DNA of 64,000 nucleotides, from positions 1,246 through 65,245 of IMG/VR virus record IMGVR_UViG_3300012930_000003; one strand, 5' to 3'. The stretch is from a virus (lineage: Duplodnaviria; Caudoviricetes). Both the position numbers and the translations under genes were made by a program. The notes under the pieces were generated by a model. The model was not told the DNA's origin. It did no database searches and saw only the letters and a program-made list of their open reading frames with translations. Shown piece by piece: positions 36,214 through 61,936 of the stretch. Numbering within the stretch: the stretch's first letter is position 1; every line of letters begins with the position of its first letter.

Positions 36214-36579
36214 ATGCGGAAAATTATATCGTGGGTTATTGCCGCGCTCGTTTGGTGGGGGGCGGCTGGCGCGGCGATGGCGACGGACTGCTCTGGGACA
36301 ATCACATCGGGCGGGACGGCGCAGGCCATAACCGGCATCAACGGCAACGTTCGCGGCCTGATGCTTATGAACAACTCCGCAAATCTCATGTGCGTGTCGT
36401 TCAATGGATCGGCGGCGACCATTGCGGGCACGAACTGCGGCGCTGGGTCATGGACATTGGGGCCGGGAACAGCAACTGTTGCTGGGCAGTCGTTCTCGAC
36501 GCCAGTCAATATCACGATCAGCACGGCCTCGATTATCTCGTCGACCACGGGCGATCGGTTTTCATGCGAGCGTCAGTGA
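36214..36579 (+). CDS. Signal-peptide-bearing small beta-sandwich protein
   Basis: MRKIISWVIAALVWWGAAGAAMA signal, VRGLMLMNNS motif, 4 Cys. Confidence 0.7.
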   Translation: MRKIISWVIAALVWWGAAGAAMATDCSGTITSGGTAQAITGINGNVRGLMLMNNSANLMCVSFNGSAATIAGTNCGAGSWTLGPGTATVAGQSFSTPVNITISTASIISSTTGDRFSCERQ

Positions 36580-37601
36580 TGCGCAAGTCGCTTGCCCTTT
36601 TCCTCGTCTGCTGGGCATCGATTGCGGAGGCGCAGTTTGGCGGGTCGATTGGGCTGCCTGGATTTAAAGGCCTCGGAGGCCCGGGCTTTGGCGGGGGCGG
36701 CGCTGTTGCTGCATCCTGTACACCGGGTTCGCAGGTATTTTTATCCTCTGGGACTTTTAACCCCGGCGCTTGCACTACAGCTACCTTCTCAGCCATCGGT
36801 GAAGGTGGCAACGGTGCTGCCGGGAATACATCATCACTCTCTGGCGGCGCGGGTGGGTCAGGTGCGTATTGTTCGGCCTCTGTAAGTGTCACGCCCAACG
36901 TTGATATAAGCATTGTTATTGGAACGGGCGGGACGGGAACCAATACAACCGTCACTGGCAAGAATATCGTTGCCGGCGCTGGAGCCAATGCAAGTAACGG
37001 AACAGGTGGGGCTAATGGATCGTCTGCCGCTTGTACCGCCGCTGCTGCTACAGCTAGAAACGGCATCAATGGAAGGAATTCAACAGTAAGTCGCCCTACT
37101 CCGGGAGGCAGTGGCGCCGCAGGTCCAAGTACATCGGGTTTTGCGGGGGGGTCTCCTTTTACTGGCGGTGCAACTGGCGGCACGGGGGGCGGCGGTGCAG
37201 GGACTAGTGGTTCAGCTGGTGTTGCTACATCGACCATTAATGGTGGTAATGGCGGTAACGGTGCCAATGGTACGGGTGCTGGGGTTGGCGGTATTGGCGA
37301 TGGCACTGCGGGTGGTAATGGAACCTCTCCAGGGGCGGGTGGTGGTGGTGCAGCGGGGTCGATTATCGCAACTGCGGCAGTTGGTGGAAATGGGGCTGCG
37401 GGCACAGACGTTGACGGGTCTACGATCGGTGCGGGCGGCGGTGGTGGGGGTGGTGGGTCAGAAGACACAGGATTAAATGGCGGCGGTGGGGGTAATGGCG
37501 GGACCTGCGGAGGAGGAGGCGGCGGCGGGGGCCGTGGGATTGTAGCGGGTGGCAATGGCGGTGCTGGCGCTCCCGGTTGCGTTCTCGTGACGTATCCCTG
37601 A
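36579..37601 (+). CDS. Glycine-rich (polyglycine-II-type) fibre protein with signal peptide
   Basis: TGATG coupling. MRKSLALFLVCWASIAEA signal. GGAGGSGAY...GGNGGAGAPGCVLVTY is the Gly-rich domain seen in phage fibres. Confidence 0.7.
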   Translation: MRKSLALFLVCWASIAEAQFGGSIGLPGFKGLGGPGFGGGGAVAASCTPGSQVFLSSGTFNPGACTTATFSAIGEGGNGAAGNTSSLSGGAGGSGAYCSASVSVTPNVDISIVIGTGGTGTNTTVTGKNIVAGAGANASNGTGGANGSSAACTAAAATARNGINGRNSTVSRPTPGGSGAAGPSTSGFAGGSPFTGGATGGTGGGGAGTSGSAGVATSTINGGNGGNGANGTGAGVGGIGDGTAGGNGTSPGAGGGGAAGSIIATAAVGGNGAAGTDVDGSTIGAGGGGGGGGSEDTGLNGGGGGNGGTCGGGGGGGGRGIVAGGNGGAGAPGCVLVTYP

Positions 37602-37698
37602 TGCGCGGCGCCATCGCCATGAACTTCGCGCTTTGGGCCATGATTGTGATAGCGTTCGGCAAGTGGTATTCGATAATTTAATTACAACGGAGCATCAA

Positions 37699-38262
37699 AT
37701 GGGCGGTCATCTTCTCGCATCGGTAAATCCGGAAGCTGCGGACCTTATCCAGCCAGCCGCACCGCGCCCTCGCCTGCCGGGCGTCGGCCAAACCGTCGTG
37801 TACCATATGCGTCGCGGCCACGGTCGGAACGGTCGGACCTCGTTTCCGGCGCTCGTACAGGGTCACGGCGAGCGCGATACGCTGATGCTGACGGTCATCA
37901 TCGACGCTGGGGATATGGTCGACGAGCAATTCGTTGAGATGATCGGCCCCGGCAAGGATGATGGGCATTGCTGGGAATGGCCGGAGGGCGTGCGGCCGCT
38001 GGCGGAGCGGCTTGATGAGCCGGCCGGGCTGCGGTCACTAGTGAACGAACTGGATGAGCAAATGGGCAGGATGCATCAATGCGTCCTCGGCGAATTTGAG
38101 GCACCGAAAGTCTCGATCATCCACATCATGCAGGATTTCGAGTCGCGTCTGCGTGCGGTGAAGGCCGAAAACGACGAGTTGCGGGCCAATCTTTTGTCTG
38201 CGGCCGATGTGCTGCCAGCGCCGCGTAACGGCAAAACCAAGGCGCGCGGGAAGAAGAAATGA
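37699..38262 (+). CDS. Hypothetical protein
   Basis: GGAG RBS. PGVGQTVVY...PALV...CWEWP motif plus coiled coil. Confidence 0.65.
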   Translation: MGGHLLASVNPEAADLIQPAAPRPRLPGVGQTVVYHMRRGHGRNGRTSFPALVQGHGERDTLMLTVIIDAGDMVDEQFVEMIGPGKDDGHCWEWPEGVRPLAERLDEPAGLRSLVNELDEQMGRMHQCVLGEFEAPKVSIIHIMQDFESRLRAVKAENDELRANLLSAADVLPAPRNGKTKARGKKK

Positions 38263-38415
38263 GCGACGCCCGGCCGTTTGTTTTACGCAGGCGTCGCGAA
38301 TCAATCACGGCCGAAGAGGTAATCAAGAAATTGCAGGAATTGGGCGGCGATCCGGTAACGGTCAACAAGATCGAGATAGCTATCGCAGCAATCCAAGATG
38401 GGAATGGTCGGTAAA

Positions 38416-40800
38416 ATGGCTGCTCGCGGTGAAATATTGGATGACGTCGAATATCGGGACATGACCGATAAAGGCGACGATTATTTCACGGCCCAAGGCA
38501 AATCCATCGACAAAGACGCGGATGACTGGAATTCCGAGAGTTCGGCGACCGACGCCGACGATATCCAGGCCCGTCCGGTTTCCCTGCTCGGCCCGCGCGA
38601 CAAGTTCATGATCCTGCAGCGGTGGTGGTATTCGGACGCGGACCAATCGGCCAATTGGCGCTCGCAGGCCACGGATGACCTCGGTTTCGTCGCTGGCGAG
38701 CAACTGACCGATGAGGACAAAGCCATTCTTGACGCTGCGAACCGCCCTCACGTCGTTTTCAACCGGGTGCTGACGATCATCAAGGCCATCGCCGGCATGG
38801 AAATCAACGGCCGGCATGAAATCGTGTTTCTGCCTGAGGAAAACGACGACACGATGGTTTCGGAAATCCTGTCGGGAACATCGAAATGGATGGGCCAGAA
38901 GTGCGACGGTGAGGACGAGCAGTCGGAGGCTTTCCAGAAGTGCGCCATTACCGGCATCGGCGTGACGGAATCCCGCTGGACCTATGAGTATGGGGCCAAG
39001 GGGAAATACGTCGAGGAGGAATTCGACTGCCGGGAGTTCTTCTGGGACCGGACGGCGAAGAAAAAGAACCTTGTTGACGCCCGGCGCATGGCTCGGGTTC
39101 GGCGGATGCCGCTTTCGGATGCCATGCAGATGTTTCCCGGCAAGTCGCGCCGTGCTCTTGATGCGTCGTGGGCGGACGCCGGGATTTATTACGATAGCGG
39201 GCCGCGATCGATCGAGGAAAAGCGCATTCGCGACGGCAAGAACTCATACCTCGATTGGGACGATACGAACGAAGTCACCATCGTCTGTATGCAGTGGTGG
39301 GAGCGTGAGCCGTATTACATGGTTGCCGACGAGCAATCGCAGGAAATGGTCGAGATGTCGCCGAAGGAATTTCGGACGCTGGACCGTATGCGCAGGTTGG
39401 CTGGCCAGCCGCGCCTTGACGGTGTGAAGATGACCAAGCGGGCCTATAAGCAGGCGTTCCTTGGGAATGAATATCTCGGGGGCGGCAAGGCGCCGCTGGG
39501 CCAGCAATTTAGCTGGGGCGTCATTACCGGCGAGTGGGATGCGAAAAAGCGGATGTGGTTCGGCCTGACGCGCGTGGTCCGCGACCCGCAGATGTGGGCC
39601 AACAAGTTCATGGCGCAGGTCATGCACATCATGAATTCGACGGCCAAGGGCGGTATCCTGGCGGAGCGGGACGCCTTTGACGACGAGTTGGAGGCCGAGG
39701 AAGGCTATGCGATGGCGGACACCATCACATGGCTCAAGAACGGCGCGCTGAGCCAAGGCAAAAACCCCAAGATTATGCCCAAGCCCGGCCAAGGCGACGC
39801 CTCGGCCTATGTGGCGCTCCTGCAATACGCCGTGACGGCCATTCCGCAGGTTACGGGGGTCAATTTCGAACTGCTCGGCCAGCAGGACATGCAGAACCCG
39901 GGCGTTGTCGAGGCGATGCGCAAGCAGGCCGGCATGACGGTGCTGGCGACGCTGTTCGATGCTTTGCGGCGGTATCGGAAGATAATCGGCCGGATGCGGC
40001 TGGACGTGATCCAGCGGCGCATGAGCGACGGGCGGATTATCCGGATTGTCGGGCCGCAATATACCGGCGCGGTGCGGCTGGCGAAGGATGTCACGGCCGG
40101 CGAGTACGATGTGACCGTTGACGACGCGCCGACGTCGCCGAACCAGAAAGAGGCGAACTGGCTGATTATTTCGTCGCTTATCCCGGTGTTCAAAGATCAA
40201 TTGATGCAACAGCCCGAATTGCTGGCGATGATCCTCGAATACTCGCCGCTTCCTGCTCCGTTGGTGGCTGCGTTCAAGCGGATTGCGCTCGCTCCGCCCG
40301 ATCCAGCGAAGGCTGCGGAGCAGCAGAAGGCCAAGGAATTGATGGTCGCGAAGGTTCTGGCTGAGATCAGCAAGGACGATTCGATTGCGAACATGAATAA
40401 CGCCAAGGCCGGGGCGCAGCAGGGCACGGCGGCCTACGATCTGGCGATTGCGCAGAATATGCAGCACGACAATGCGTTGCAGCGTGGGAAACTGTTAATT
40501 GACGCCAAGAAGGGCGATGCCGAGGTCGGCTTGATCCACGCCAAGGCGGCGCGGGAGGCGGCCGGCATTCACCACGACACGGCGTCAAGCGCGGTGGATA
40601 TCCTCAACGCCCGAACCAAGCATATCGAGGCGACGGACAAGATGCACACAAACCGCGTCGGGGCGCTGAGTGACCATATGGCGGCGACGGCTGGGGTGCA
40701 CCACGATTTGGCTGCGGCGTTCCAGAAGCGGGTTGCGGGGATGGTCGCGGCGCGGACGCCGATTGTTGATCCGAACAAGCAGAAGGCATCAAATGGCTAA
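38416..40800 (+). CDS. Portal protein (P22-like, long C-terminal barrel)
   Basis: DLGFVAGEQ...RPHVVFNRV, GLTRVVRDPQMWANK and YDVTVDDAPTSPNQK. About 795 aa. Confidence 0.88.
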   Translation: MAARGEILDDVEYRDMTDKGDDYFTAQGKSIDKDADDWNSESSATDADDIQARPVSLLGPRDKFMILQRWWYSDADQSANWRSQATDDLGFVAGEQLTDEDKAILDAANRPHVVFNRVLTIIKAIAGMEINGRHEIVFLPEENDDTMVSEILSGTSKWMGQKCDGEDEQSEAFQKCAITGIGVTESRWTYEYGAKGKYVEEEFDCREFFWDRTAKKKNLVDARRMARVRRMPLSDAMQMFPGKSRRALDASWADAGIYYDSGPRSIEEKRIRDGKNSYLDWDDTNEVTIVCMQWWEREPYYMVADEQSQEMVEMSPKEFRTLDRMRRLAGQPRLDGVKMTKRAYKQAFLGNEYLGGGKAPLGQQFSWGVITGEWDAKKRMWFGLTRVVRDPQMWANKFMAQVMHIMNSTAKGGILAERDAFDDELEAEEGYAMADTITWLKNGALSQGKNPKIMPKPGQGDASAYVALLQYAVTAIPQVTGVNFELLGQQDMQNPGVVEAMRKQAGMTVLATLFDALRRYRKIIGRMRLDVIQRRMSDGRIIRIVGPQYTGAVRLAKDVTAGEYDVTVDDAPTSPNQKEANWLIISSLIPVFKDQLMQQPELLAMILEYSPLPAPLVAAFKRIALAPPDPAKAAEQQKAKELMVAKVLAEISKDDSIANMNNAKAGAQQGTAAYDLAIAQNMQHDNALQRGKLLIDAKKGDAEVGLIHAKAAREAAGIHHDTASSAVDILNARTKHIEATDKMHTNRVGALSDHMAATAGVHHDLAAAFQKRVAGMVAARTPIVDPNKQKASNG

Positions 40801-40950
40801 TATTCCTGACGACGTTTTGGAGAAAGTGGCATCGGCGCTGACGGCGGCCGTTGGCATTACGATGGTTCACGCCAAGGAAATGAACAAGAAAATGCTTGAT
40901 GCGTCCATCGCGTTGGACGATGCCATCAATGCGGAAGATGCCGACGACGA

Positions 40951-41331
40951 ATGATCCGTTCCCACTCCGCACTACTCCGCCACGCGCAGGATTTCTTCGC
41001 CGCCGAACTAGTCGGCCTATACCGCTGGGACCGAGTGACGATTGCCGAGCCGGAGCGGATGCCTGCCATCCCGTCGAATGCCGAATACCGCGACCGTCGG
41101 CGGATGATGGAAGAACGCGAGGGGCGGGGGAAATACCTCGAACAGGTCCGGATATTGTTCAAGCCGTGGGAAATTCTGGTTTACTCGTCGATGGAGCGTC
41201 CTCCGCTTGGCGAGGTTTTGCTGCGGGACTTCGACAGCACGCAAACGCTGGTTGAGGGACCGCTCGACTCGGCCACTTGGTCGAAAATCGGAAATTGGAT
41301 AAGATCGCATCAACAGAGGATTGCATCATGA
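40951..41331 (+). CDS. Hypothetical protein
   Basis: ATGA overlaps on both sides. Confidence 0.55.
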   Translation: MIRSHSALLRHAQDFFAAELVGLYRWDRVTIAEPERMPAIPSNAEYRDRRRMMEEREGRGKYLEQVRILFKPWEILVYSSMERPPLGEVLLRDFDSTQTLVEGPLDSATWSKIGNWIRSHQQRIAS

Positions 41332-41989: not shown

Positions 41990-42009
41990 CACCGAAGGAA
42001 CCGCATCAA

Positions 42010-43514: not shown

Positions 43515-43679
43515 TCGAATACATCGCCATTAAGGTCACCAAGGCCATTCTCATCACATTCGGAATCCTGATCGGCGTTCCCTACGTTCTGGCGCTGATC
43601 GGGCTGGCGAGGGTCGCGGACCGCGCTGGGCGGCGGCGATATCGGAGAGTTTAACCGCACCGGACGGCTCCAACCTTGG

Positions 43680-43708: not shown

Positions 43709-43713
43709 GGGCG

Positions 43714-45035: not shown

Positions 45036-45047
45036 GGGAGCAGCACA

Positions 45048-46565: not shown

Positions 46566-47060
46566 ATGCTGAAACGCCTCCTGCCGTCCATCATCTTCGC
46601 GCTGGGCCTGATCGGTGCGGCGTATGCCGTGAATATCACCGGCACCAATACCGCGAACGAAAACTCCGTCGTGAAGATGGGTTACGAGCGGCTTTCGGTG
46701 ACGGACGCGATCACGGCCTTTGCTGGGGGAGGGCAGACCAGCGCGGTCCTGCTGGATTCGGGATACAATCGGGTCACCACCGTCGCGTCCGGAAACGATA
46801 GCGTCAAACTGCCGTCCTGCCATACCGGGGCGATCAGCGCCGGCCAATTGCCTGCGGGGCAGATTTCCGGCAATACGATTGGGTTGATCGTATGGGTCAC
46901 CAACGCCGCTGCATCGAACTCGATGAACGTCTATCCGCAGACGGGCGAGTCGATCAACGCCATCGCCGCGAACAGCCCATACGCGATGGCGGCAAACAAA
47001 ACCTCGGCTTTCATCTGCTCGCCGGCCGGAACGATTTGGTATTCGCTGCTTGGATCATAG
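46566..47060 (+). CDS. Head-module beta protein with signal peptide
   Basis: MLKRLLPSIIFALGLIGAAYA signal. ITAFAGGGQTSA...NRVTTVASGNDSVKLP motif of phage structural proteins. Confidence 0.7.
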   Translation: MLKRLLPSIIFALGLIGAAYAVNITGTNTANENSVVKMGYERLSVTDAITAFAGGGQTSAVLLDSGYNRVTTVASGNDSVKLPSCHTGAISAGQLPAGQISGNTIGLIVWVTNAAASNSMNVYPQTGESINAIAANSPYAMAANKTSAFICSPAGTIWYSLLGS

Positions 47061-47074: not shown

Positions 47075-47782
47075 ATGGCCACCGGGAAATCTGCAACGGA
47101 TATGATCGCGCGCATCGCGAGCGAACTCGGGCAGCGGTCTGATCTCGCCCCCGGCGGGGCTTATCCTACCGTCATCACGAACGCGATTTCTGATGCAGTC
47201 GGAATCTACCAGAAAGAGCGGTTTCGGTTCAACGAACTGCAGCCAATTTCCCCATTCACATTGAACACGGTGCAGGGCCAGACCGTTTATGGCGTGGCGG
47301 CAGATGCTCGCATTCCGACGCTATACAAAATCGACTATATCAATTATCTGCTCGGTACTACGACGGAGCGGATGGACCGTGTTTTCCCCGAGGATGTTTA
47401 TTTGGCGTTGCAGAACGGCACGGAAGCCGGGCCACCTCAAGAGTGGGCTTGGGATGGTCAGTCCATCGTCATCTATCCACGGCCGCCATCGACTTCGTAT
47501 CTGTTGACCATCGGCGGATACCTGGCTCTTGATGGCCCAGATTTGACGACGCAACCCGGGCGCGATGTCACCACAAATCCATGGATGAACGATGCGGAGC
47601 GGCTGATCCGGTCGCGCGCCAAATATGAGATTGCGCTCAATTTCACCCGCAATGACAAGATGGTGGCGGCGATGGCTCCTGACTTTGGCAGTGGGGGCGC
47701 GACGGAGCGCGCGTTCAATGAGTTGATAGGCGAGGCTAACAAAATCCGTGGCACATCCCGCATTCGTCCAATGCCATTCTGA
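47075..47782 (+). CDS. Head-to-tail adaptor
   Basis: MIARIASEL.RSDL...RFRFNE...YPRP...TNPWM...LIRSRAK. Position in the module. Confidence 0.7.
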   Translation: MATGKSATDMIARIASELGQRSDLAPGGAYPTVITNAISDAVGIYQKERFRFNELQPISPFTLNTVQGQTVYGVAADARIPTLYKIDYINYLLGTTTERMDRVFPEDVYLALQNGTEAGPPQEWAWDGQSIVIYPRPPSTSYLLTIGGYLALDGPDLTTQPGRDVTTNPWMNDAERLIRSRAKYEIALNFTRNDKMVAAMAPDFGSGGATERAFNELIGEANKIRGTSRIRPMPF

Positions 47783-47792
47783 GGGGCCATAG

Positions 47793-49550
47793 ATGCCCAT
47801 CATCCCATTTCCCGCTTATCGGCCGGACCTCACGGACCTCGGGACCGAAAGTTCGGTTCTGATCTCTGGCGTCCTTCCTCGCGGGGATGGCTTTGGGCCG
47901 TTCAAATCGTTCATTGGCTTTACTCAGGCGCTGCCGGCCAATTGCAGGGGTTTTTTCTTCGCCCGGCGGAGCGATGGATCGATCGCGGTTTTCGCCAGCA
48001 CGTCCACGCGGCTTTACCTGCTGGACAATTCCAGTTTCGCATGGACCGATGTTAGTAAGGGCGGCATCGCATACGGCGCGCTGCCTTCCGACAAGAATTG
48101 GAAATTCGCGCAGTTCAATGACTTTGTTTTGGCGGTTCAGGTCAATACGGTGCCGCAGAAATTCGTACTGAGTTCGGGGTCCGCGTTTGTCGATCTCGGC
48201 GGGTCGCCTCCGCAGGCGGGGCAGATTGCCATCGTCAACGGGTTCGTGATGCTGACGGAGTTGCTTTCCAATTCGCGGCGCGCGCATTGGTGTGATCTGT
48301 TTGCGCCGGAGACATGGACGGCCGGCGTGGGGCTGGCAGATTTTCAGGACTTTCCGGACGGCGGCGTTTGCCATGCGATATCTGGTGGCGATGCATACGG
48401 GGTAATTTTTCAGGATGAGGCAATTCGGAGCCTGACCTATGCGCCGGGGTCGGCGGCTGTGTTCCAGATTGCGCGGATATCGACACAGGATACGCTCTTT
48501 GCGGAATATTCGGTCATCAACGCTGGGACGCGGACCTTCTTTCTATCGGCGCAAGGGTTCAAGGTCATCGTATCGGGCGGTGAGCCTGTGGCGATCGGAA
48601 AAGAGCAAGTCGATACGTTCTTTTTCGAGGATGTTGACCGCAACAGCCTGCAACTCGTCATCGGGGTCGCGGACCCGGCTGGGACGCGGGTGGGATGGGC
48701 CTATAAATCGCAACAAGGCAGCGCTGGGCTATTCGACAAAATCCTGTGGTTTGATTGGTCGATCAAGGACCGGCCGTGGTCGATTGTGCCGATGTCGGGG
48801 CAGTATATCGGGTATCTCGCCAAGCCTGGGTTGACGCTTGAGGCTTTGGACACGATCGCGCCTGGGACGATTGCGATAACGAACGTGACCAATGCGGGCG
48901 GGTTCTGCGTTTTGACGGTCGCGAGCATTGCGCGGGTATCCGGGCCGGCTCCGCCGGACGGCGCTCCGACCGAAACGCAGTTGCAGGTTAACGACCGGAT
49001 TGCGGTCAGCGGCGTGACCGGCACGGGCGGCCTTCCTGCAGCGATCAACGTGGGGAACATCAAGATTACGGCTATCGCAGGGACCGGGCCGTTTACCCTG
49101 ACGACAAACGTTGCTTTTGTCGGGGCCTATACCAGCGGCGGACTGATTGCTGGATCGATTGATGCGCTGCCGTTCTCGCTGGATAGCATTTCGGCGGCAG
49201 CTGTTGCCGCGCTAGCAGCTGTTGGCCCCACATCCATTCTCGGGTTTTTCACCGGCCCCAATATCGAGGCCATTCTTGAGACGCCAGAGCAGGATTTGGG
49301 GGCATGGATATTCCTTGACGGAATCATGCCGTACACAGATTCGGCGGAAGCGATGGGGTCGATTGGCTATCGGAACACGGCTCAGGGGGCGGTGAGTTAC
49401 ACGGCGGAGACGGCGATCAACGGTCGCGGCGATTGTCCAGTGAATATCGAGGCGCAATTTATGAAGGCTCGACTGCGTATCCCGGCTGGATCGACGTGGC
49501 GGTACGCTCGGGGCATCCGGCCGAATGCGCAGCAAGCCGGGGATAGCTGA
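47793..49550 (+). CDS. Tail nozzle/stabilisation protein (P22 gp10-like beta-propeller)
   Basis: 585 aa, beta-rich, WKFAQFND and ADFQDFPDGG motifs. Follows the adaptor. Confidence 0.75.
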   Translation: MPIIPFPAYRPDLTDLGTESSVLISGVLPRGDGFGPFKSFIGFTQALPANCRGFFFARRSDGSIAVFASTSTRLYLLDNSSFAWTDVSKGGIAYGALPSDKNWKFAQFNDFVLAVQVNTVPQKFVLSSGSAFVDLGGSPPQAGQIAIVNGFVMLTELLSNSRRAHWCDLFAPETWTAGVGLADFQDFPDGGVCHAISGGDAYGVIFQDEAIRSLTYAPGSAAVFQIARISTQDTLFAEYSVINAGTRTFFLSAQGFKVIVSGGEPVAIGKEQVDTFFFEDVDRNSLQLVIGVADPAGTRVGWAYKSQQGSAGLFDKILWFDWSIKDRPWSIVPMSGQYIGYLAKPGLTLEALDTIAPGTIAITNVTNAGGFCVLTVASIARVSGPAPPDGAPTETQLQVNDRIAVSGVTGTGGLPAAINVGNIKITAIAGTGPFTLTTNVAFVGAYTSGGLIAGSIDALPFSLDSISAAAVAALAAVGPTSILGFFTGPNIEAILETPEQDLGAWIFLDGIMPYTDSAEAMGSIGYRNTAQGAVSYTAETAINGRGDCPVNIEAQFMKARLRIPAGSTWRYARGIRPNAQQAGDS

Positions 49551-50451: not shown

Positions 50452-51591
50452 ATGACCGATAGCACCAAAACCACCAATCAATCGCAAACGAGCCAGACCT
50501 CACCGTGGGCACCGACGCAAGGATTGCTCGGTAACCTGATCAATTCGTACGGCGATCAGAGCACGGCGGTTACGGGCGGGCAGTCGGCGGCGCTTTCCAA
50601 TCTGTCGGGGGCAACGTCGAACCTGCCGAATTTCGGCGCGGCGGGCACGGGGGCGATTTCCAATCTGTTCAACACGAACAATTCCGGCCAAGTCGGGATG
50701 CTCAATACTGCCTATGACACACTGAGGGGCAATTTGGGTGCGACGGCGAGCGGGGCAAATCTCAATCCATATTCGACGCCGGGGTTTGGCGACGCGCTCG
50801 GCACGGCGATGGACGATATCACCAACCGGACGAAGGGCGTTTACGCGGCATCCGGCCGTGACCCGTCGGGCGCGGGATCGTTTGCGCAGTCGCTCGGCCG
50901 TGGTCTGACGCAAGGTATCTCGCCGCTGATCCAGAGTCAGTTCAATCAGAACTACTCGAACATGGCTGCGGCAAACCGCGATCTATTCTCGGGCGCGGGG
51001 TCGACGGCATCTGGCATCAACAATCTGAACCAGCAGCAGTTGAGCAACGGCATCACTGGCATCGGGGCGGCGAGCGCAATCCCGAGCCTCTATACGTCGC
51101 CTGCGATGGCGCAGCTTGGCGCGGCGAATGCTCAATATGCACAGCCATACCAGAACCTCGCTCAATTGTTGCAGCCGTCGGCGGCTATTGCTGGCTTGGG
51201 AAGCCAATCGAGCGGCACGGGAACCAGCACGCAAACTTCGCAGCCGTCTCTCATGGATTCGATTATGGGCGGATTTAAGCTGGCCGGCACTGGGGCGAGC
51301 GCGGCGGGGTCTGCGGCTGCGGCATGGCCTGCGTTGCTGGCGCTATCCGATGTCCGCGCGAAAGAGAACATTGCGCACGTCGGCAAATTGCATGATGGCC
51401 AGAACGTCTATTCGTTCAACATGAAGGGGTCGAAAACTCCGCAGGTTGGCCTGCTTGCGCAGGAAGTCCAGCAACACGTCCCGGATGCCGTGCATGAGCA
51501 TCCGTCCGGTCTCAAGATGGTGGACTATTCGCGAGCTACCCATAAGGCTCGCGCCATGGGTGGCGGTGTCGGCGCATTGAGGGCTGCGTAA
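50452..51591 (+). CDS. DNA ejection/pilot protein with C-terminal S74-like intramolecular chaperone domain
   Basis: TTNQSQTSQTSPW N-terminus, Gly/Ala/Ser-rich body, SDVRAKENI...VGLLAQEV...VDY. Confidence 0.75.
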   Translation: MTDSTKTTNQSQTSQTSPWAPTQGLLGNLINSYGDQSTAVTGGQSAALSNLSGATSNLPNFGAAGTGAISNLFNTNNSGQVGMLNTAYDTLRGNLGATASGANLNPYSTPGFGDALGTAMDDITNRTKGVYAASGRDPSGAGSFAQSLGRGLTQGISPLIQSQFNQNYSNMAAANRDLFSGAGSTASGINNLNQQQLSNGITGIGAASAIPSLYTSPAMAQLGAANAQYAQPYQNLAQLLQPSAAIAGLGSQSSGTGTSTQTSQPSLMDSIMGGFKLAGTGASAAGSAAAAWPALLALSDVRAKENIAHVGKLHDGQNVYSFNMKGSKTPQVGLLAQEVQQHVPDAVHEHPSGLKMVDYSRATHKARAMGGGVGALRAA

Positions 51592-56197: not shown

Positions 56198-56322
56198 GCT
56201 CAATGTGGCGTGCGATGGCGTACAAGATGAGGATCATGGTAAGACCGGCCATCGGGCCGCCGAAGTGAACAAGGCCGATGGCGGCGGATTTCAAGGCGAG
56301 TAGCAGGACTAAAAGCAGGAAT

Positions 56323-56838
56323 ATGAGCATGTCCGCAGTTAAGCGCCGGAAACTTCCCAGTCAAGATCGGCTAAAGCATCTTTTTGATTACGATCAAGGG
56401 ACTGGGTTTTTGATTCGGAGGGTAAATGTCAGCAATCAAAAGGCTGGGGAAAGGGCTGGTAATTTTTGCGCAAAAAGTGGCTATCGGGCCATATCTATTG
56501 ACGGAGGCCAGTACAGAGAAGCCAACGTTATATGGGCGTGGATGACAGGGGTTGATCCTTCGGGCATTGTCGATCATCGGGATTTGGTTCGAGATAACAA
56601 TGCATGGGTCAATTTGAGGCTTGGCACTCAATCACAAAACGTCGCCAATAGCCCAGTTCGAACAACCAATATTCTTGGCGTGAAAGGTGTGAGCAAAAAG
56701 CGCGGAAGGTTTAGGGTGCAAATTACAGTAGACGGAGAGAACCATCATCTCGGCACTTTTGATACGGTTGAGGAAGCGTCATCGGTGCGCATGGCTAGGG
56801 CGAAAGAACTGTTCGGCGAATTCGCGAGGCTCGCATGA
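56323..56838 (+). CDS. HNH-AP2 homing endonuclease
   Basis: LFDYDQGTG...VDHRDLVRDNNAWVNLR...SQN...GVKGV...HLGTFDTVEEA...LFGEFA. AT-rich. Confidence 0.88.
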   Translation: MSMSAVKRRKLPSQDRLKHLFDYDQGTGFLIRRVNVSNQKAGERAGNFCAKSGYRAISIDGGQYREANVIWAWMTGVDPSGIVDHRDLVRDNNAWVNLRLGTQSQNVANSPVRTTNILGVKGVSKKRGRFRVQITVDGENHHLGTFDTVEEASSVRMARAKELFGEFARLA

Positions 56839-57542
56839 ATGGGTTGGAGACAGTTCGGGCTCTTATCGACAAGGGATACACGCCTGCGCAGGCGGCGGCT
56901 CTTGCTGGTCACGTCATGCAGGAAAGTGGGTTCGATCCATCGAATGTCAACAAAGGTGAGGATGCGCACGGGCTTGTGCAATGGCGCGGCGACCGCTGGC
57001 AAGGTTTGCAGGATTTCGCCAAAGCGCAAGGGAAATCTCCGACCGATCCCTTGGTGCAGATGGATTTCATCGGCCACGAAATGAGAGGCCCTGAGGCAAA
57101 GGCTGGCGCAGGGTTCATGGCGGCTCCCGACGTTGCGAGCGCCAGTGCGGCTCTCAAGCCCTATATTCGATATGCCGACCCAGGTGGTGCACAGACTGCC
57201 CTGCGGACGAATAACGCGGTCGGACTGCTGGCCCAATATAACGGCGGCGCGCCAACTGCGCCGGTCGATCCGACCAATCCCGCCGATCCGACGCAATCTG
57301 TGGCCGCACCCGCCGCGCCGCTATCCATCGCGCCAGACGCGGCAACGCCCGTGGGCTCGCTGGCGTCGTCGCTGCAGTCGTTGGGCGGCAGTTTGGGCGG
57401 CGGCACTTCGGGCCAACCGGCGCAGCAACCGGCCGCGCCTGACTTCCTCGCGCCGCAGCAAATCGCCATGCCGCAGGCAAATACCGGACAATCGCAACAA
57501 ATCGCCGCCGCCTTGGCCAAGATGTACGGAATCGGAGCATGA
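56835..57542 (+). CDS. Virion-associated lysozyme (phage tail lysozyme type)
   Basis: QAAALAGHVMQESG...GLVQWRGDR...QMDFIGHEM, followed by a Pro/Ala-rich tail. Confidence 0.82.
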   Translation: MNGLETVRALIDKGYTPAQAAALAGHVMQESGFDPSNVNKGEDAHGLVQWRGDRWQGLQDFAKAQGKSPTDPLVQMDFIGHEMRGPEAKAGAGFMAAPDVASASAALKPYIRYADPGGAQTALRTNNAVGLLAQYNGGAPTAPVDPTNPADPTQSVAAPAAPLSIAPDAATPVGSLASSLQSLGGSLGGGTSGQPAQQPAAPDFLAPQQIAMPQANTGQSQQIAAALAKMYGIGA

Positions 57543-58660
57543 AGATGAAATTGATGCGCGGACGGCTGGTTGAATTTCTGATCCTGCTGATGGTGGCTAT
57601 TGGCGCTGGGCCTGCTGGCGCGGCTCTGTGGCAATGGTCGACTACGGCTGGCCTCAACGGCAACAGTGACCCAACTATCAATTTTGCGGAAGGCCAAGCC
57701 CCATCATCGCTGAATGATAGTGCGCGTGCCCTCATGGCGGCGGTCGCAGTCAACATCAAGGACACCAATGGCCAAATCACATCTGGCGGCACAATTGCGG
57801 CGCTCACCCTAACGACGAATACCGTTTTCCCGAGCGCATCCGCCTTGGTTGGGCAGGCGATCACCTTCATTGCCGGCACAGGCAACGGTGCGGGTGCAAC
57901 GCTCAATATCGACGGGACCGGCGCGCTTGCGATCTTTATCGATGGTGTCAACGGGGCCGTGCCCGCGAATACCATCACGGCAGGCGGCATCTACACCGTG
58001 ACGAACACGGGCGGCCTTTATCGGCTGCATTCCGTCTACAACAACCCCTATAATACGGCGCTCGGAAGTATTCTTTGGTCAACGCTTTCGACCGCGCCAA
58101 ATGCGAACTTCGTTCTTGCAAACGGGCAGTGCCTCTCGACGACGACCTATTCGGTCTACTGGGTTGCGCTCGGGTCTCCGGCTAGCGGGGCGTGCGCTGG
58201 CGGGTTTTTTCAAATCATTGACTTGCGCGGTCGCGTTGTCGCCGGATTGGATACGCTCGCCGGAACTGGCGCGGCGGGACGCCTCACGTCGTCTGCGACG
58301 GGTTGCGGCACGGCAATGACGACGGTTGGAGCGGTCTGCGCGAACGGCCTTGAGGGCTACTCTCTCACTGCCGCGCAAATTCCATCGATCACAGCGGCAA
58401 ACGCCAGCGTTTCTCTCAGTGTGAGCACCACCACAAACAACTGGGTTGCGGGCAATACGTCGGATAGCACTGCGGTCAGCGCGGGTGGGGCTGGAACGGC
58501 ATATACGGTTTCAACGGCCGTTGGCCCTGTCGTTTCCAAGCAGCCGGCATCTGGTAGCGCGACGGGCTCCGTATCGGTGACATCCAACAATACCAGCGGC
58601 GCCGTGCATCCTGAGGTGCAGCCGACGATCGGTCTCGTTCCTTTCTTGCGGGTGATTTGA
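57539..58660 (+). CDS. Tail fibre with collar domain, preceded by a signal peptide
   Basis: WSTTA..N..INFAEGQAPSSLNDSARALMA anchor, APNANFVLANGQ...DLRGRVVAGLD collar and VQPTI C-terminus. Confidence 0.8.
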   Translation: MKMKLMRGRLVEFLILLMVAIGAGPAGAALWQWSTTAGLNGNSDPTINFAEGQAPSSLNDSARALMAAVAVNIKDTNGQITSGGTIAALTLTTNTVFPSASALVGQAITFIAGTGNGAGATLNIDGTGALAIFIDGVNGAVPANTITAGGIYTVTNTGGLYRLHSVYNNPYNTALGSILWSTLSTAPNANFVLANGQCLSTTTYSVYWVALGSPASGACAGGFFQIIDLRGRVVAGLDTLAGTGAAGRLTSSATGCGTAMTTVGAVCANGLEGYSLTAAQIPSITAANASVSLSVSTTTNNWVAGNTSDSTAVSAGGAGTAYTVSTAVGPVVSKQPASGSATGSVSVTSNNTSGAVHPEVQPTIGLVPFLRVI

Positions 58661-59082
58661 TGCTGGTTCAAACCAATCTACGGGTGCACCCAACGGCGGC
58701 GGCTCGGAACATTTACTATGAGGCTGCGGCTCCGATCACGGCCAACAATGTGCAGGATGCGATTGAGCAGGCTGCGGCCAGCGGCGGGGCGTCGATAACG
58801 CCGACGAACATTGCCATCGGGCAGTCGCCCTACACGGTGCTGGCGGCCGATCGGTATATCCGGGTGGATACATCCGGTGGCAACGTCACCATTAATATGA
58901 TGCCGTCAGCCGCTCGCAATGGCCTTGATGTTGAAATCAAGAAGGTCACCGCAGATGCTAATTCGGCTTCCGCCGTCCGTAATGGTGGAGAGGACATCGA
59001 CGGCATCGTGTCATATCCAATCGATTCGCCGCTGCTTGCGGTGAGGTTCATGCCGAGGGCAAATGGCTATGATGTTGTTTAG
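58657..59082 (+). CDS. Small tail fibre/adaptor protein
   Basis: ANNVQDAIEQ and SPYTVLAADRYIRVDTSGGNVTI motifs. Confidence 0.65.
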   Translation: MMLVQTNLRVHPTAAARNIYYEAAAPITANNVQDAIEQAAASGGASITPTNIAIGQSPYTVLAADRYIRVDTSGGNVTINMMPSAARNGLDVEIKKVTADANSASAVRNGGEDIDGIVSYPIDSPLLAVRFMPRANGYDVV

Positions 59083-61936
59083 GAAACTTCGCTCGTCATT
59101 GTCTGCACTCGCAACGTCCCTCGCCGTTGCGGGTATGATGCTATCGCCTGTGCTTGCTCAACAGGGTATCCAATTCCCGACAGGAACCATCTACGGCAAC
59201 GACACGGCGTCAACGCGATCTGGCAAGACAGCCACGATGTCGTCGATGTTCGACCGCGCCTATTGTTCGACGGTCGGCTATGTGATTGCCCGCACCATCG
59301 GAACTTGGACGTGCTCGCAGAATATCCCGGTCAAGGCGTCCTATTACGGCGCCATCTGCGACAGCGCGACGACGACATTTGCAGCGAAACTGCAAGATGC
59401 CGTAACGGCTGCGCAGAACGCTGGCGGCCTTCCGGTTGAATTGCCGCCGCCTGCCACCGTCGGCGCGAAATGCATTCACACAACCAGCGTGTGGACGAAC
59501 ATCTGGGCTGGCGCTGGCGTCTTGGCCGCGCCTGGAATGGACATCCGTGGCGTCGACCGTGATGTGACCGTGCTCGATACCCGCGTGGTCGGGTATGCGT
59601 TCGCGACCAATCCGGATTGGCAGTCGGCTTATAAATCGCTCTACCTTTCGACGGTCGGGGCTGGCGGCGTTCTGGCGTCTGGAACCTACTACGTCCAGAT
59701 TACAATGACCGACCCGTCCGCCAACGAGGTATTGGTGACATCGGCAGAGCCGTTCACCGTCCCCGCTACGGGTCGGGTGACATTGCCGCTGCAATCGGTC
59801 CATACCGGATACTGCTACAACATCTATATTTCCGCTTCTAGCCTGATGACATCCTCAAGTTACGGGAAGATCAGTGGCTCCGATGCAATCTGCTTGGGCG
59901 GAAACCAGAGCGTCAATCTGACCGATTTTGGCACGGCTCATGCGGTTCCGACCAATAAGGTCGCGGTCTGGCAGCAAGCCAATTTCGAGAAATTCTCGAT
60001 CACAAATCCCACCGCAGTAGCGGGGGCAAACTGCCTGAGTATTTTCAAGGTCGCGTATACGACCGTCGACAAGTTCTATTGCTCCAGCGTCGTCGATGGC
60101 ATCGATATTCTGACCTATTTCGGCGATGCCGATGGCAGTTTCAACGTCAAGATTACCCAATCTAAATTCAACGGCGTGAGCGGATGGGGCATTAACGGCG
60201 CTGGCGCGGCGGCGGGCCTGTCCTACCTCTTTGTGGAAAACGTAATCTGCAATCTCTGCGGAACGCTGCCGGCGAACTATTTCCCGCCATCCCTTTATGG
60301 CTCTGGATTTGGAATCAGCACGATCTCGCGCGCCAGCCCGAACGTGATGACGACGACGGCTCCGCATACGCTGCAGACCAATGACGAGATTTACATTACC
60401 GGCGTCTTTGGCAGCATGACGCAGCTTGTGAACGGCTGGTATCGCGTCAACGTGACTGGGGCATCGACACTCAACCTTGAGGATTTGGTTACCGGAACGA
60501 TCATCGATACCTCAGGGTTCACGCCATATACGACTGGCGGCGCATTCGCGCTGGCATGGCGTCCTCCGACACAGACGACGGGATCGGGAGGGTTTGCATG
60601 GGGCGGCCTTTCCGCAACCTTCAAGCATTCCGGGTGCACACAGGCAAACGGCACATGCTTCTACGCTACCGAGGTTGTCGGGTCGAACAATCTGAAACTG
60701 GATAATTTCACGGCCGAAAATACGCTCGGCAAGGGGTATTACATCGGGTCTCTGGCCGGCGGTGAATTCTCCGGCATCGAGGTATTGAGCGCGGTGGCCT
60801 ATGGCCAGACCCATGCCGGGATGCAACTCGGCACCGGCTTTGCCGCCGGCGGGGTTTCAAACGTCACCGTATCCAGCGCCAAGGTACGGTCGGATGTGAC
60901 GATTGCCATTGGGTTCGAGCAATTCCGAAACACGAACAATCCCACGGCGTTCACCGATTCAAACCGCGTCCGGAACGTCACTTGGACAACGTACGACCTT
61001 GCGGCAACGCAAGAGCGGTTTCGGGCATTTACTTTTGATCCGATCCCGGGCCAAGTTCAGCTTTCGATATCGGCGGTCAATACCGCACAGCTTATCCCCG
61101 TTGGATATGGCGGCTGCCTCCCGATTCATCTCAAGGCAACGGGTGAATGGGTTTGCGTTCGTGTCCCGAGCGCGGGTGTCACTCAAGCCGGCATTGGCGG
61201 GCTTTCGGCGACCACCACTTATCAACTCTACGCCTACAACTCGGCTGCGACCAATGCGCCATATGCCATTTCGATGGAGGTAAGCGCTACTGGCGTGGCT
61301 CTTGATGCCGCTGGATATTATGTGAAATCCAGCGATAGCACGCGGACTTTCGTCGGGCAGGCGAGGACCGATGGCAGCGGAAATTTCCAGACATCTGGAA
61401 CGCAGAGCACTCTTTTCCCGATCCAGTCCACCGTTCCGATTGTAACGACCGCTGGTGCGGTGTCATGTCCGACATGTGCGGTGACTGGCACCACTATTAC
61501 CGGAGCATATGGCATCACCGGAGGCGGCGATCTTTCGGCCAACCGAACGTTGGGCGTCAACCTCACTACGGCCGCCAACTCCATCGGCGGCAACGTCGCC
61601 ATGAACAATACGGCGAACTATTTCGATGGTCCCAGCATGGCGCAGGGCACCACTGGGACATGGTGGGCTTCCGGTACGGTTACTGTCACAGATACTGCGG
61701 CGACCGCGAATATCGTTTGCAAGCTTTGGGACGGGACAACCGTAATCGATAGCGGTTCTCTGACCACGGCCACGATTGGCCAAAACGCGACTATGACGCT
61801 ATCGGGAACGCTGGCCAGTCCGGCCGCGAACATGCGCATGTCGTGCCGGGATATTTCGGCAACCACTGGTCTGATTTTGAGTGGGGCGAGCGGCAACACC
61901 AAAGACAGCACAATCACAGGCGTTAGAATTCAATAA
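59063..61936 (+). CDS. Tailspike/receptor-binding protein (beta-helix-like) with signal peptide
   Basis: YGAICD...LQDAV beta-helix cap. 957 aa, Thr/Gly/Ser-rich, 18 Cys. Last tail gene. Confidence 0.75.
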   Translation: MAMMLFRKLRSSLSALATSLAVAGMMLSPVLAQQGIQFPTGTIYGNDTASTRSGKTATMSSMFDRAYCSTVGYVIARTIGTWTCSQNIPVKASYYGAICDSATTTFAAKLQDAVTAAQNAGGLPVELPPPATVGAKCIHTTSVWTNIWAGAGVLAAPGMDIRGVDRDVTVLDTRVVGYAFATNPDWQSAYKSLYLSTVGAGGVLASGTYYVQITMTDPSANEVLVTSAEPFTVPATGRVTLPLQSVHTGYCYNIYISASSLMTSSSYGKISGSDAICLGGNQSVNLTDFGTAHAVPTNKVAVWQQANFEKFSITNPTAVAGANCLSIFKVAYTTVDKFYCSSVVDGIDILTYFGDADGSFNVKITQSKFNGVSGWGINGAGAAAGLSYLFVENVICNLCGTLPANYFPPSLYGSGFGISTISRASPNVMTTTAPHTLQTNDEIYITGVFGSMTQLVNGWYRVNVTGASTLNLEDLVTGTIIDTSGFTPYTTGGAFALAWRPPTQTTGSGGFAWGGLSATFKHSGCTQANGTCFYATEVVGSNNLKLDNFTAENTLGKGYYIGSLAGGEFSGIEVLSAVAYGQTHAGMQLGTGFAAGGVSNVTVSSAKVRSDVTIAIGFEQFRNTNNPTAFTDSNRVRNVTWTTYDLAATQERFRAFTFDPIPGQVQLSISAVNTAQLIPVGYGGCLPIHLKATGEWVCVRVPSAGVTQAGIGGLSATTTYQLYAYNSAATNAPYAISMEVSATGVALDAAGYYVKSSDSTRTFVGQARTDGSGNFQTSGTQSTLFPIQSTVPIVTTAGAVSCPTCAVTGTTITGAYGITGGGDLSANRTLGVNLTTAANSIGGNVAMNNTANYFDGPSMAQGTTGTWWASGTVTVTDTAATANIVCKLWDGTTVIDSGSLTTATIGQNATMTLSGTLASPAANMRMSCRDISATTGLILSGASGNTKDSTITGVRIQ

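What the first reader, a model, noticed from the sequence alone, without database searches (positions are those of the whole stretch)
36214..61936. Virion appendage proteins with Sec signal peptides and paired cysteines: possible periplasmic folding and extracytoplasmic virion completion
Seen: five genes in the structural region begin with a basic-hydrophobic-(A/V)xA signal peptide. They are 36214 (MRKIISWVIAALVWWGAAGAAMA/TDC), 36579 (MRKSLALFLVCWASIAEA/QFG), 46566 (MLKRLLPSIIFALGLIGAAYA/VNI), the 57539 tail-collar fibre (MKMKLMRGRLVEFLILLMVAIGAGPAGA/ALWQW) and the 59063 tailspike (MAMMLFRKLRSSLSALATSLAVAGMMLSPVLA/QQG). Their predicted mature parts have even Cys counts (4, 6, 2, 4, 18). In the tailspike these fall into nine neighbouring pairs (e.g. 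YCSTV..WTCS, VICNLCG, GCTQANGTCF, SCPTC). Core proteins (portal, MCP, adaptor, nozzle, ejection proteins) and the small beta proteins at 34633, 45508 and 58657 have no signal, and those three small proteins have no Cys. Known: tailed phages assemble in the reducing cytoplasm, and fibres normally have no signal peptide. From memory, the WSTTA..N..INFAEGQAPSSLNDSAR anchor usually sits right at the N-terminus of related fibres, whereas here a leader precedes it. Inference: receptor-binding and decoration proteins are exported, oxidised by host Dsb enzymes and attached to particles only at or after lysis. This could stabilise them or hide them from cytoplasmic anti-phage sensors.
Basis: partly seen in the sequence, partly recalled or inferred. 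Interest (0 to 1): 0.92.

Follow-up and report, generated by a model that had tools for sequence, protein, structure and literature searches.

The report
Phage tail fibres carrying export signals
A complete 65-kb soil-type phage, like hundreds of uncultured relatives, puts ordinary bacterial secretion signals and paired cysteines on its tail fibre, tailspike and several small fibre-like proteins, so its host-recognition gear very probably folds in the periplasm and not in the cytoplasm where the particle is built.

Summary
Observation confirmed. All five N-termini read as written. A crude signal-peptide detector of my own (SignalP was not available) calls all five, with mature Cys counts 4, 6, 2, 4, 18.

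The leaders are conserved. 120 of 120 close fibre homologs carry a basic, hydrophobic, (A/V)x(A/S) leader directly before the anchor, and all have 4, 6 or 8 mature Cys. 94 leaderless family members start at the anchor, never have Cys at the first collar pair, and show random Cys parity. The 164-aa protein shows the same coupling. In six genomes, 40 of 43 leader proteins have even mature Cys. In the spike, 8 of 9 neighbouring Cys pairs are kept or lost together in a 45%-identical homolog.

Export and periplasmic oxidation are well supported. The leader arose once in the fibre tree, so that covariation is one event.

Seven literature searches found no report of this for tailed phages. This scan has noted the same pattern on other DNA: 147 notes in at least 129 genomes.

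The parts
57539..58660 (+). Tail-collar-type fibre, 373 aa. Leader is residues 1-28 (57539-57622). Predicted mature N-terminus is ALWQWS... Four Cys are invariant in the clade alignment.
58657..59082 (+). Small 141-aa protein between fibre and spike, with no leader and no Cys. Lead only: it resembles the N-terminal (T4 gp9/gp10-like) domain of tailspikes.
   Evidence: (homologs of 141-151 aa with 0 Cys in L004, L006, L008, L009, L011, L014). (L022). (Atlas; leads only).
59063..61936 (+). Distal receptor-binding protein or tailspike, 957 aa. Leader is residues 1-32 (59063-59158). Mature N-terminus is QQG... It has 18 Cys as nine neighbouring pairs.
46566..47060 (+). 164-aa protein directly upstream of the adaptor gene. 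Leader is residues 1-21 and there are 2 Cys. The predicted fold resembles N-terminal or XD (T4 gp9/gp10-like) domains of tailspikes.
36214..36579 (+). 121-aa protein with a leader of residues 1-23 and 4 Cys. Conserved with its leader in 3 of 5 complete relatives, next to the terminase-side small genes.
36579..37601 (+). 340-aa glycine-rich protein with a leader of residues 1-18 and 6 mature Cys. Its start overlaps the stop of the previous gene by one base. No homolog was found by BLASTP in the five relatives.
34064..34402 (+). 112-aa protein with a twin-arginine (Tat) signal. It is a sixth export-signal gene in the same region and was not found in the five relatives.
47075..49550 (+). Adaptor (235 aa) and nozzle (585 aa). 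They have no leaders and are the presumed docking site of the fibre anchor (inferred, not shown).
   Evidence: One search gave no verdict.
62603..63928 (+). Lysis cassette: an M15 peptidase without a leader, a two-helix holin-like protein, and a lipoprotein (possible spanin). Together they imply holin-dependent lysis of a diderm host.

Best explanation
The fibre, the distal spike and the 164-aa gp10-like protein are virion appendage proteins made with cleavable Sec-type signal peptides. The smaller proteins at 36214 and 36579 may be too, with less certainty.

Proposed steps:
1. The proteins are exported unfolded to the periplasm of a diderm host, probably an alphaproteobacterium.
2. Signal peptidase I cuts them. 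For the fibre this happens one to two residues before the conserved anchor.
3. Their paired cysteines are oxidised there, and they fold and trimerise outside the cytoplasm.
4. The particle (P22-like portal, capsid, adaptor, nozzle, ejection proteins, and the leaderless Cys-free 141-aa protein) is built in the cytoplasm.
5. The two sets can only meet when the holin opens the inner membrane, so infectious particles are completed at or after lysis.

Shown by comparison: the signals, and their coupling with cysteine pairs.
Inferred by homology: virion membership of the fibre.
Pure inference: the joining step.
For: Signals:
- Detector calls: 5 of 5 in the window, 117 of 120 close fibre homologs and 93 of 120 homologs of the 164-aa protein.
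- The 3 uncalled fibre rows carry the same leader behind an upstream-extended start.
- Both spike homologs found carry leaders.
- In the 120 fibres, the n-region has net charge +2 in 108.
- A, V or L holds the -3 place in 114, and A, S or G the -1 place in 108.
- Pro holds the -4 place in 101.
- The best 10-residue hydropathy is at least 2.31.
- Leader identity is 39%, against 73% for the anchor.

Coupling with Cys:
- 120 of 120 close fibres have 4, 6 or 8 mature Cys.
- Among 152 family rows, 47 of 49 leader rows are even.
- The 94 leaderless rows split 54 even (21 with none) to 40 odd. None of the 94 has Cys at the first collar pair, against 34 of 49 leader rows.
- In the 164-aa family, 89 of 93 called rows have Cys at both columns. 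20 of the 24 truly leaderless rows have A or S at the first column.
- In six genomes, 40 of 43 leader proteins are even. ORFs without leaders give 130 even-nonzero to 147 odd.
- 8 of 9 spike pairs are co-kept or co-lost in P0123.

Virion link:
- The anchor matches phrog_30879 and the N-termini of leaderless fibres.
- The gene order is the same as in ppBeUSDA76-2.
- The 164-aa model (pLDDT 88) matches tailspike N-terminal domains: Solidus gp83 at E 2.5e-4, CBA120 TSP4, and T4 gp9 and gp10.

Consistency across loci:
- In 11 loci with the fibre, small protein, spike order, 13 of 13 distal proteins have a leader. 12 of 13 have even Cys.
- No Dsb, thioredoxin or signal-peptidase family appears among the 19 Pfam families hit by 65 window proteins.
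Against: - There is no proteomic, microscopic or genetic evidence for any step.
- SignalP was not available. The detector is my own heuristic.
- The leader state changes only once on the fibre tree, so leader/Cys covariation in that family is a single event. The independent-pairs test had n = 1.
- Virion disulfides are known to form without export (Milano, Q-beta, a siphovirus tail tube; passages of PMC13576161).
- In one sub-clade (L010, and L015 to L018, of which only L015 was mapped) the fibre gene carries a hydrophobic N-terminus, called as a leader only in L010. The next genes have no leader.
- The 141-aa protein between fibre and spike has no leader.
- Cys-Cys distances could not be measured, because the structure tool returns no coordinates.
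- The fibre monomer model was poor (pLDDT 63).
- Joining after dilution at lysis looks inefficient.
Confidence: 0.55

Rival explanations
1. The leaders are genuine and the proteins are exported, but they never join particles. They act on the infected or lysogenic cell's envelope, by masking or destroying receptors, excluding superinfection, or keeping progeny from sticking to debris. This would resemble lambda Lom or Bor, or T5 Llp (recalled examples). The particle would use other proteins, such as the leaderless S74-chaperone protein at 50452, to bind the host.
For: - In relatives G001 to G003, arrays of 4 to 8 leader proteins (62 to 970 aa) lie next to the terminase gene, outside the tail module. 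The window's 36214 and 36579 occupy that place.
- The Atlas gives pectate-lyase-like leads for the spike, so an enzyme acting on envelope glycans is plausible.
- A leader-bearing fibre gene stands in a Bradyrhizobium genome where this capsid query found no match.
- There is no evidence of virion membership.
Against: - The fibre keeps a strongly conserved anchor (73% identity, invariant W, S, N, D, P, S, R positions). This anchor is the N-terminus of the leaderless fibres of related podophages, in the same gene position.
- Cleavage recreates that N-terminus.
- The 164-aa protein sits directly before the adaptor gene in 4 of 5 relatives. It has a tailspike-attachment-type fold.
Confidence: 0.27
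2. The hydrophobic N-termini are not export signals. They stay on the proteins in the cytoplasm, for example as trimerisation, docking or membrane-contact helices. The cysteines oxidise spontaneously after release into oxic soil, as in other phages with virion disulfides.
For: - Virion disulfides without a dedicated machinery are documented (passages of PMC13576161).
- AlphaFold draws residues 2-20 of the fibre and 5-20 of the 164-aa protein as helices.
Against: - The full n/h/c pattern, with small residues at -3/-1 and Pro at -4, is conserved while the sequence drifts.
- The hydrophobic cores are 10 to 15 residues, which is short for a membrane anchor.
- At least a dozen unrelated proteins share the pattern.
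- Such N-termini would be engaged by the host Sec machinery in any case (established knowledge).
Confidence: 0.1
3. Artefact: the start codons are wrong or the resemblance is chance.
For: - One source's gene call for the 164-aa protein starts at residue 22 (P0270).
- The spike has internal ATG-ATG codons at positions 25-26.
Against: - The leader is in frame and conserved in 120 of 120 fibre homologs.
- No start codon lies between codon 19 and the anchor.
- The chance rate of my detector is about 4 of 234 on the opposite strand.
Confidence: 0.02

Closest known systems
Leaderless tail fibres of Bradyrhizobium phage ppBeUSDA76-2 (OP596614.1) and Rhizobium phage RHph_Y1_10 (MN988487.1), and leaderless prophage fibres in Bradyrhizobium-family genomes
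   Same: Same N-terminal anchor and collar-type body (37-43% identity). The gene lies last in the tail module, after the ejection proteins and a lysozyme-like protein.
   Different: They start 4-5 residues before the anchor, have no leader, and have A/G in place of the first collar Cys pair.
Mosaic adhesive trimer (MAT) fibres of Bdellovibrio bacteriovorus (PMC10769870; passages read)
   Same: They are phage-tail-fibre-like trimers made with a signal peptide and working outside the cytoplasm. This shows that such fibres can be exported and fold there.
   Different: They are cellular proteins displayed on the predator's surface and are not part of a virus particle. No homology was tested here.
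Filamentous-phage adsorption protein pIII
   Same: A virion receptor-binding protein with a signal peptide whose disulfides form in the periplasm before it joins the particle.
   Different: Inoviruses assemble by extrusion through the envelope. This is a tailed phage with a P22-like portal and a holin-type lysis cassette.
Exported endolysins (fOg44 Lys44; SAR endolysins of P1 and phage 21; passages of PMC6116005)
   Same: Late phage proteins that use the host Sec system before lysis.
   Different: They are lysis enzymes, not particle parts.
Phages with disulfide-crosslinked tails or capsids (Agrobacterium phage Milano, Q-beta, a siphovirus tail tube; passages of PMC13576161)
   Same: Cysteine bonds stabilise virion parts.
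   Different: No export signals are reported for them. Oxidation is thought to be spontaneous or host-assisted after assembly.

Membership tests
Sec-type signal peptide cut by signal peptidase I | Positively charged n-region | tested here: met
   All five window leaders have net positive n-regions. 108 of 120 fibre homologs have net +2, and 118 of 120 have at least +2.
Sec-type signal peptide cut by signal peptidase I | Uncharged hydrophobic core of about 7-15 residues, shorter than a membrane anchor | tested here: met
   The window cores called by my detector span 11-17 residues. In 120 of 120 fibre leaders the best 10-residue Kyte-Doolittle mean is at least 2.31.
Sec-type signal peptide cut by signal peptidase I | Small residues at -3 and -1, and a helix breaker before them | tested here: met
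   In 120 fibres, A, V or L is at -3 in 114, A, S or G is at -1 in 108, and Pro is at -4 in 101. The window sites are AMA/T, AEA/Q, AYA/V, AGA/A and VLA/Q.
Sec-type signal peptide cut by signal peptidase I | Prediction by a trained tool (SignalP) and experimental cleavage | not testable with these tools
   SignalP is not installed, and there are no proteomic data for this uncultured clade.
Tail-collar-type phage fibre (phrog_30879 anchor plus Pfam PF07484 Collar) | N-terminal anchor motif | tested here: met
   phrog_30879 at E 1.8e-10, fibre residues 29-82 to profile positions 3-56 of 64.
Tail-collar-type phage fibre (phrog_30879 anchor plus Pfam PF07484 Collar) | Collar domain recognised by Pfam | tested here: inconclusive
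   No Pfam hit for the window protein at E 0.01 or better. PF07484 is precomputed on 3 of the 120 listed homologs. The Microcystis phage homolog is annotated as tail collar.
Right-handed beta-helix tailspike | Beta-helix or pectate-lyase-type fold | tested here: inconclusive
   Pfam gives only a sub-threshold E1_FCCH hit (24.8 bits, below the 29.5 cut-off). The Atlas gives pectate-lyase leads at 0.80-0.81 and a structure TM of 0.39/0.45. The only PDB sequence hit is to tail collar fibres gp4 at E 0.002.
T4 gp9/gp10-like (XD) attachment domain of branched tailspikes | Fold match of the 164-aa protein | tested here: inconclusive
   Foldseek against PDB: Solidus gp83 at E 2.5e-4 with TMq 0.46, then CBA120 TSP4 1-335, T4 gp9 and T4 gp10 at E 0.009 to 0.14. 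Foldseek against BFVD: E 1.4e-11 to uncharacterised phage proteins.
Twin-arginine (Tat) signal (gene at 34064) | Pfam TAT_signal above the gathering score | tested here: met
   29.8 bits against a cut-off of 22.7, residues 2-22.

The most novel reading that the evidence does not exclude
A tailed phage with a two-compartment assembly line.

The head and tail are built in the cytoplasm. They carry only leaderless, cysteine-free docking pieces, such as the 141-aa gp9/gp10-like protein.

The whole receptor-binding set (fibre, beta-helix spike, and the 164-aa adaptor-like protein) is Sec-exported, oxidised by host Dsb enzymes and perhaps pre-assembled in the periplasm.

Particles become infectious only when the holin merges the two compartments.

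Host Sec and Dsb functions would then be morphogenesis factors of a tailed phage. This route is shared by a large uncultured clade of about 65-kb phages. According to other notes of this scan, it is also shared by unrelated soil phages.
Probability: 0.45. Interest if true: 0.9.

Novelty: new variant of a known kind. Interest (0 to 1): 0.8.

Why it matters
Textbook morphogenesis of tailed phages takes place wholly in the reducing cytoplasm.

A large clade that routes its host-recognition proteins through the Sec pathway and the oxidising periplasm would do three things:
- It would add an extracytoplasmic step to that pathway.
- It would make host Sec, signal peptidase and Dsb functions into phage assembly factors.
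- It would explain how soil phages can obtain disulfide-stabilised fibres.

It also bears on annotation. Gene callers and curators tend to trim or distrust such leaders, as in one source's call for the 164-aa protein.

It also bears on the expression of such receptor-binding proteins for host-range work, which would need periplasmic or oxidising expression.

The claim can be tested at the bench with ordinary phage-host experiments once a member is cultured.

Tried and rejected
- Complex prediction (adaptor, nozzle and fibre residues 27-110): score 0.02 against a mark of 0.32, no verdict. It is not used as evidence either way.
- AlphaFold2 of the fibre monomer: pLDDT 63, with the C-terminal third below 50.
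- The structure tool gives no coordinates and no file in /data.
- PDB sequence searches gave nothing useful: spike, one hit at E 0.002; fibre profile, one hit at E 0.1.
- tblastn against 50,697 phage records: spike, no match; 164-aa protein, no match; fibre, 3 records, all leaderless.
- Pfam on five leader proteins of relative G003: 0 families.
- Independent-contrast test of leader against Cys on a FastTree tree of 137 of 152 rows. I dropped 9 N-truncated rows and 6 shorter than 250 aa. The leader changes once, so n = 1 and the test has no power.
- Paralogy of 36214 with 34633: one 34-residue alignment at E 0.009, weak. Paralogy of 46566 with 45508: none.
- The hydrophobic segment of the GDSL esterase (34948) was called by my detector from an internal GTG. 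I rejected it as a Sec signal because Arg follows at +1 and +3. It nevertheless remains among the 43 proteins counted.
- Host:
  - A GcrA family hit points to Alphaproteobacteria; that GcrA is typical of them is recalled.
  - 26 of 301 Bradyrhizobium-family genomes have fibre homologs. All 4 whose fibre ORF I read are leaderless, and most other matches start at profile positions 16-26.
  - One 61-kb phage-like contig is binned in a Bryobacteraceae MAG. Of 300 other genomes of that phylum, 0 had a match.
  - The host therefore remains inferred.
- Literature: seven searches found no report of Sec leaders on tail fibres or tailspikes. The Tunturi-virus paper holds neither 'signal peptide' nor proteomic data. 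The Bcep781 search was not followed up.

Full report
WHAT THE WINDOW IS

The window is bases 1246-65245 of a 65,245-bp IMG/VR virus record. The record has direct terminal repeats and is rated 100% complete.

Pfam finds a P22-like portal, a Phage_capsid_3 capsid and a tail lysozyme. It also finds an S74 chaperone protein, an M15 peptidase and a GcrA homolog, among 19 families hit by 65 window proteins. It finds no Dsb, thioredoxin or signal-peptidase family.

The late genes run on the + strand in this order: terminase (31040), portal, scaffold, capsid, adaptor, nozzle, ejection proteins, fibre, spike, and a lysis cassette at the right end.

The closest cultured capsid is that of Rhizobium phage RHph_Y1_10, at 51% identity. 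The clade is therefore uncultured.

THE OBSERVATION

The fibre's ATG at 57539 overlaps the stop of the upstream gene. A second ATG lies 7 nt behind a GGAG. No start codon lies between codon 19 and the anchor.

SignalP was not available. I wrote a crude detector with four requirements:
- net positive n-region;
- uncharged core of 8-18 residues with mean hydropathy of at least 1.6;
- small residues at -3 and -1;
- no Pro at +1.

It of 182 + strand ORFs of 60 aa or more, against 4 of 234 on the - strand. None of the core particle proteins is called.

The detector also picked up a lipoprotein in the lysis cassette (63524). It also called a protein at 34064-34402, whose Tat signal Pfam confirms above its cut-off.

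The Cys counts and the nine neighbouring spike pairs are correct.

THE LEADERS ARE CONSERVED, NOT ACCIDENTS OF ANNOTATION

A word-indexed search found 297 fibre relatives. The 120 listed (42-100% identical, many on contigs of about 65 kb) all carry a leader before the anchor. My detector of the 120. The other three have the same leader behind an upstream-extended start.

Counting back from the first anchor tryptophan across the 120:
- A, V or L holds the -3 place of the predicted site in 114.
- A, S or G holds the -1 place in 108.
- Pro holds the -4 place in 101.
- The n-region has net charge +2 in 108.
- Leader identity between random pairs is 39%, against 73% for the next 40 residues.

This is how a signal peptide evolves: the pattern is kept and the sequence is free. 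Cleavage would leave one or two residues before the anchor. That is the N-terminus the leaderless fibres of ppBeUSDA76-2 and RHph_Y1_10 have.

COUPLING WITH CYSTEINES

All 120 close fibres have 4 (97), 6 (22) or 8 (1) Cys after the leader. Four Cys are invariant in a 34-row alignment. Extra Cys appear as local pairs.

An exhaustive HMMER search of 1.84 billion representatives gave 2,916 hits, of which the best 150 were listed. I aligned these with two added rows:
- 49 rows have a leader. Of these, 47 have even mature Cys, and 34 have both Cys of the first collar pair.
- 94 rows start at the anchor. None has Cys at either column of that pair. Their Cys counts split 54 even (21 of them zero) to 40 odd.
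- 9 rows are N-truncated.

Against this, the leader state changes only once on a FastTree tree of 137 of these rows. For the fibre alone the covariation is therefore one evolutionary event, and the independent-pairs test has no power.

Independent support comes from other families.

The 164-aa protein:
- 93 of 119 homologs are called with a leader, and 89 of those have Cys at both columns.
- Of the 26 uncalled rows, 2 have truncated or weak leaders and both Cys.
- Of the 24 truly leaderless rows, 20 have A or S at the first column and a lone Cys at the second.

Six complete genomes:
- 43 leader proteins were kept, from at least a dozen unrelated families. Lipobox proteins and calls that trim more than 20% of the ORF were dropped.
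- They split 40 even to 3 odd.
- 364 ORFs without a call split 130 even-nonzero to 147 odd.

The spike:
- Its 45%-identical homolog P0123 also has a leader and 18 Cys.
- It keeps or lacks both members of 8 of the 9 neighbouring pairs.

ARE THESE PARTICLE PROTEINS?

Fibre: yes, by homology.
- The anchor matches phrog_30879 from profile position 3.
- The gene lies where the leaderless fibre lies in ppBeUSDA76-2, after the S74 protein, two ejection proteins and a lysozyme-like protein.

164-aa protein.
- It lies directly before the adaptor gene in 4 of 5 complete relatives.
- Its model (pLDDT 88) matches N-terminal attachment domains of tailspikes and T4 gp9 and gp10 in the PDB. The best hit is at E 2.5e-4 with TMq 0.46.
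- It also matches many uncharacterised phage proteins in BFVD, at E 1.4e-11.
- One distant homolog carries the domain behind a tail-fibre-type N-terminus.

Spike.
- It has only two sequence relatives.
- The Atlas gives pectate-lyase-type leads below the level that counts as more than a lead.

Locus architecture.
- In 11 loci with the order fibre, small Cys-free protein, distal protein(s), 13 of 13 distal proteins have a leader by eye or by detector.
- 12 of those 13 have even Cys. The exception, in L009, has 9 Cys in an ORF that looks interrupted.
- The small protein between them never has a leader or a Cys.
- The Atlas places the small protein near gp9/gp10-like N-terminal domains of spikes (a lead only).

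Exceptions and weaker cases.
- In one sub-clade the genes after the fibre have no leader. It comprises L010 and L015 to L018, of which only L015 was mapped. Only the L010 fibre was called as having a leader.
- The genes at 36214 and 36579 are less clearly structural. In G001 to G003 their counterparts belong to arrays of 4 to 8 leader proteins (62-970 aa, 2-20 Cys) beside the terminase gene. That block sits elsewhere relative to the portal than it does in the window.

HOW IT MOST LIKELY WORKS

The appendage proteins are exported by Sec, cut by signal peptidase I, and oxidised and folded in the periplasm. The particle is built in the cytoplasm. The two meet when the holin opens the inner membrane.

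The leaderless M15 endolysin, the two-helix holin-like protein and the lipoprotein fit ordinary holin-dependent lysis of a diderm host.

Final attachment of tailspikes and fibres to finished particles is spontaneous in classical in vitro systems such as P22 and T4 (recalled). The last step is therefore feasible, but it is inference here.

The main rival is that some or all of these proteins are secreted accessory proteins that never join particles. This is strongest for the terminase-side array and weakest for the fibre.

A second rival is uncleaved hydrophobic N-termini with disulfides formed after release, as discussed for other phages in PMC13576161. This does not explain the conserved cleavage pattern.

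COMPARISON WITH WHAT IS KNOWN

Seven full-text searches found no report of Sec leaders on tail fibres or tailspikes of tailed phages.

The nearest things in print that I read in passages:
- Bdellovibrio MAT fibres: phage-fibre-like trimers with signal peptides on a cell surface (PMC10769870).
- Exported endolysins (PMC6116005).
- Disulfide-crosslinked virions (PMC13576161).

Filamentous-phage pIII is the closest mechanistic analogue, but I recall it and did not read it.

This scan has noted the same pattern before on other DNA. 147 notes in at least 129 genomes hold the search words. The eight follow-ups listed there, on myoviruses, podoviruses and prophages, plus one found by sequence look-up, reached similar verdicts. 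These are unchecked AI notes and are not independent evidence.

VERDICT

Export plus periplasmic oxidation has about 0.9 probability for the fibre, the spike and the 164-aa protein. Completion of particles outside the cytoplasm has about 0.5. I class it as a new variant of a known kind (tail fibres and spikes), with a possible new assembly route behind it.

Noticed in passing
window 34064-34402 (+): A 112-aa protein with a twin-arginine signal (Pfam TAT_signal 29.8 bits, cut-off 22.7). BLASTP found no homolog in the five complete relatives.
   Followed up: partly
window 34948-36159 (+): A GDSL/SGNH esterase. Only its esterase part matches a PHROG 'tail protein' (phrog_15881, profile positions 217-539 of 554). 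The N-terminal part is replaced by a hydrophobic segment followed by Arg at +1 and +3, which does not look like a cleavable Sec signal.
   Followed up: partly
G001, G002 and G003 (loci L032-L043), next to the terminase gene: Arrays of 4 to 8 leader-bearing proteins of 62 to 970 aa with 2-20 Cys. They have no Pfam family (five were tested). The terminase-plus-array block lies after the lysis genes in G003 but before the portal in the window, so the order has been rearranged.
   Followed up: partly
G004 (L045), oriented 23633-26979: Three tandem fibre paralogs, each with its own leader, with 6, 6 and 8 mature Cys. There is no 141-aa protein or spike after them.
   Followed up: no
window 46566-47060; protein P0270: One public source's gene call for this protein starts at residue 22, exactly the predicted mature N-terminus, and so drops the leader.
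   Followed up: no
window 59135-59140: In-frame ATG-ATG at codons 25-26 of the spike, near the end of the hydrophobic core. It is also present in the 90%-identical homolog P0122 but absent in L004. A leaderless isoform is conceivable but untested.
   Followed up: no
L009 11477-14873: The distal leader protein of this relative seems interrupted. A 618-aa ORF with 9 Cys is followed by a 628-aa ORF in another frame. This may be a frameshift or an assembly error.
   Followed up: no
L023/L053 (Bradyrhizobium sp. Ghvi, 810-kb contig): A leader-bearing fibre gene with the clade's Cys pattern stands beside a serine-recombinase-like gene. This capsid query found no match in that genome.
   Followed up: partly
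window, early region and 32595, 56278, 62067: A GcrA cell-cycle-regulator homolog and two Pfam HNH_3 endonucleases occur among the window's proteins. HNH-like ORFs interrupt the late operon near the terminase, before the lysozyme-like gene and after the spike.
   Followed up: no
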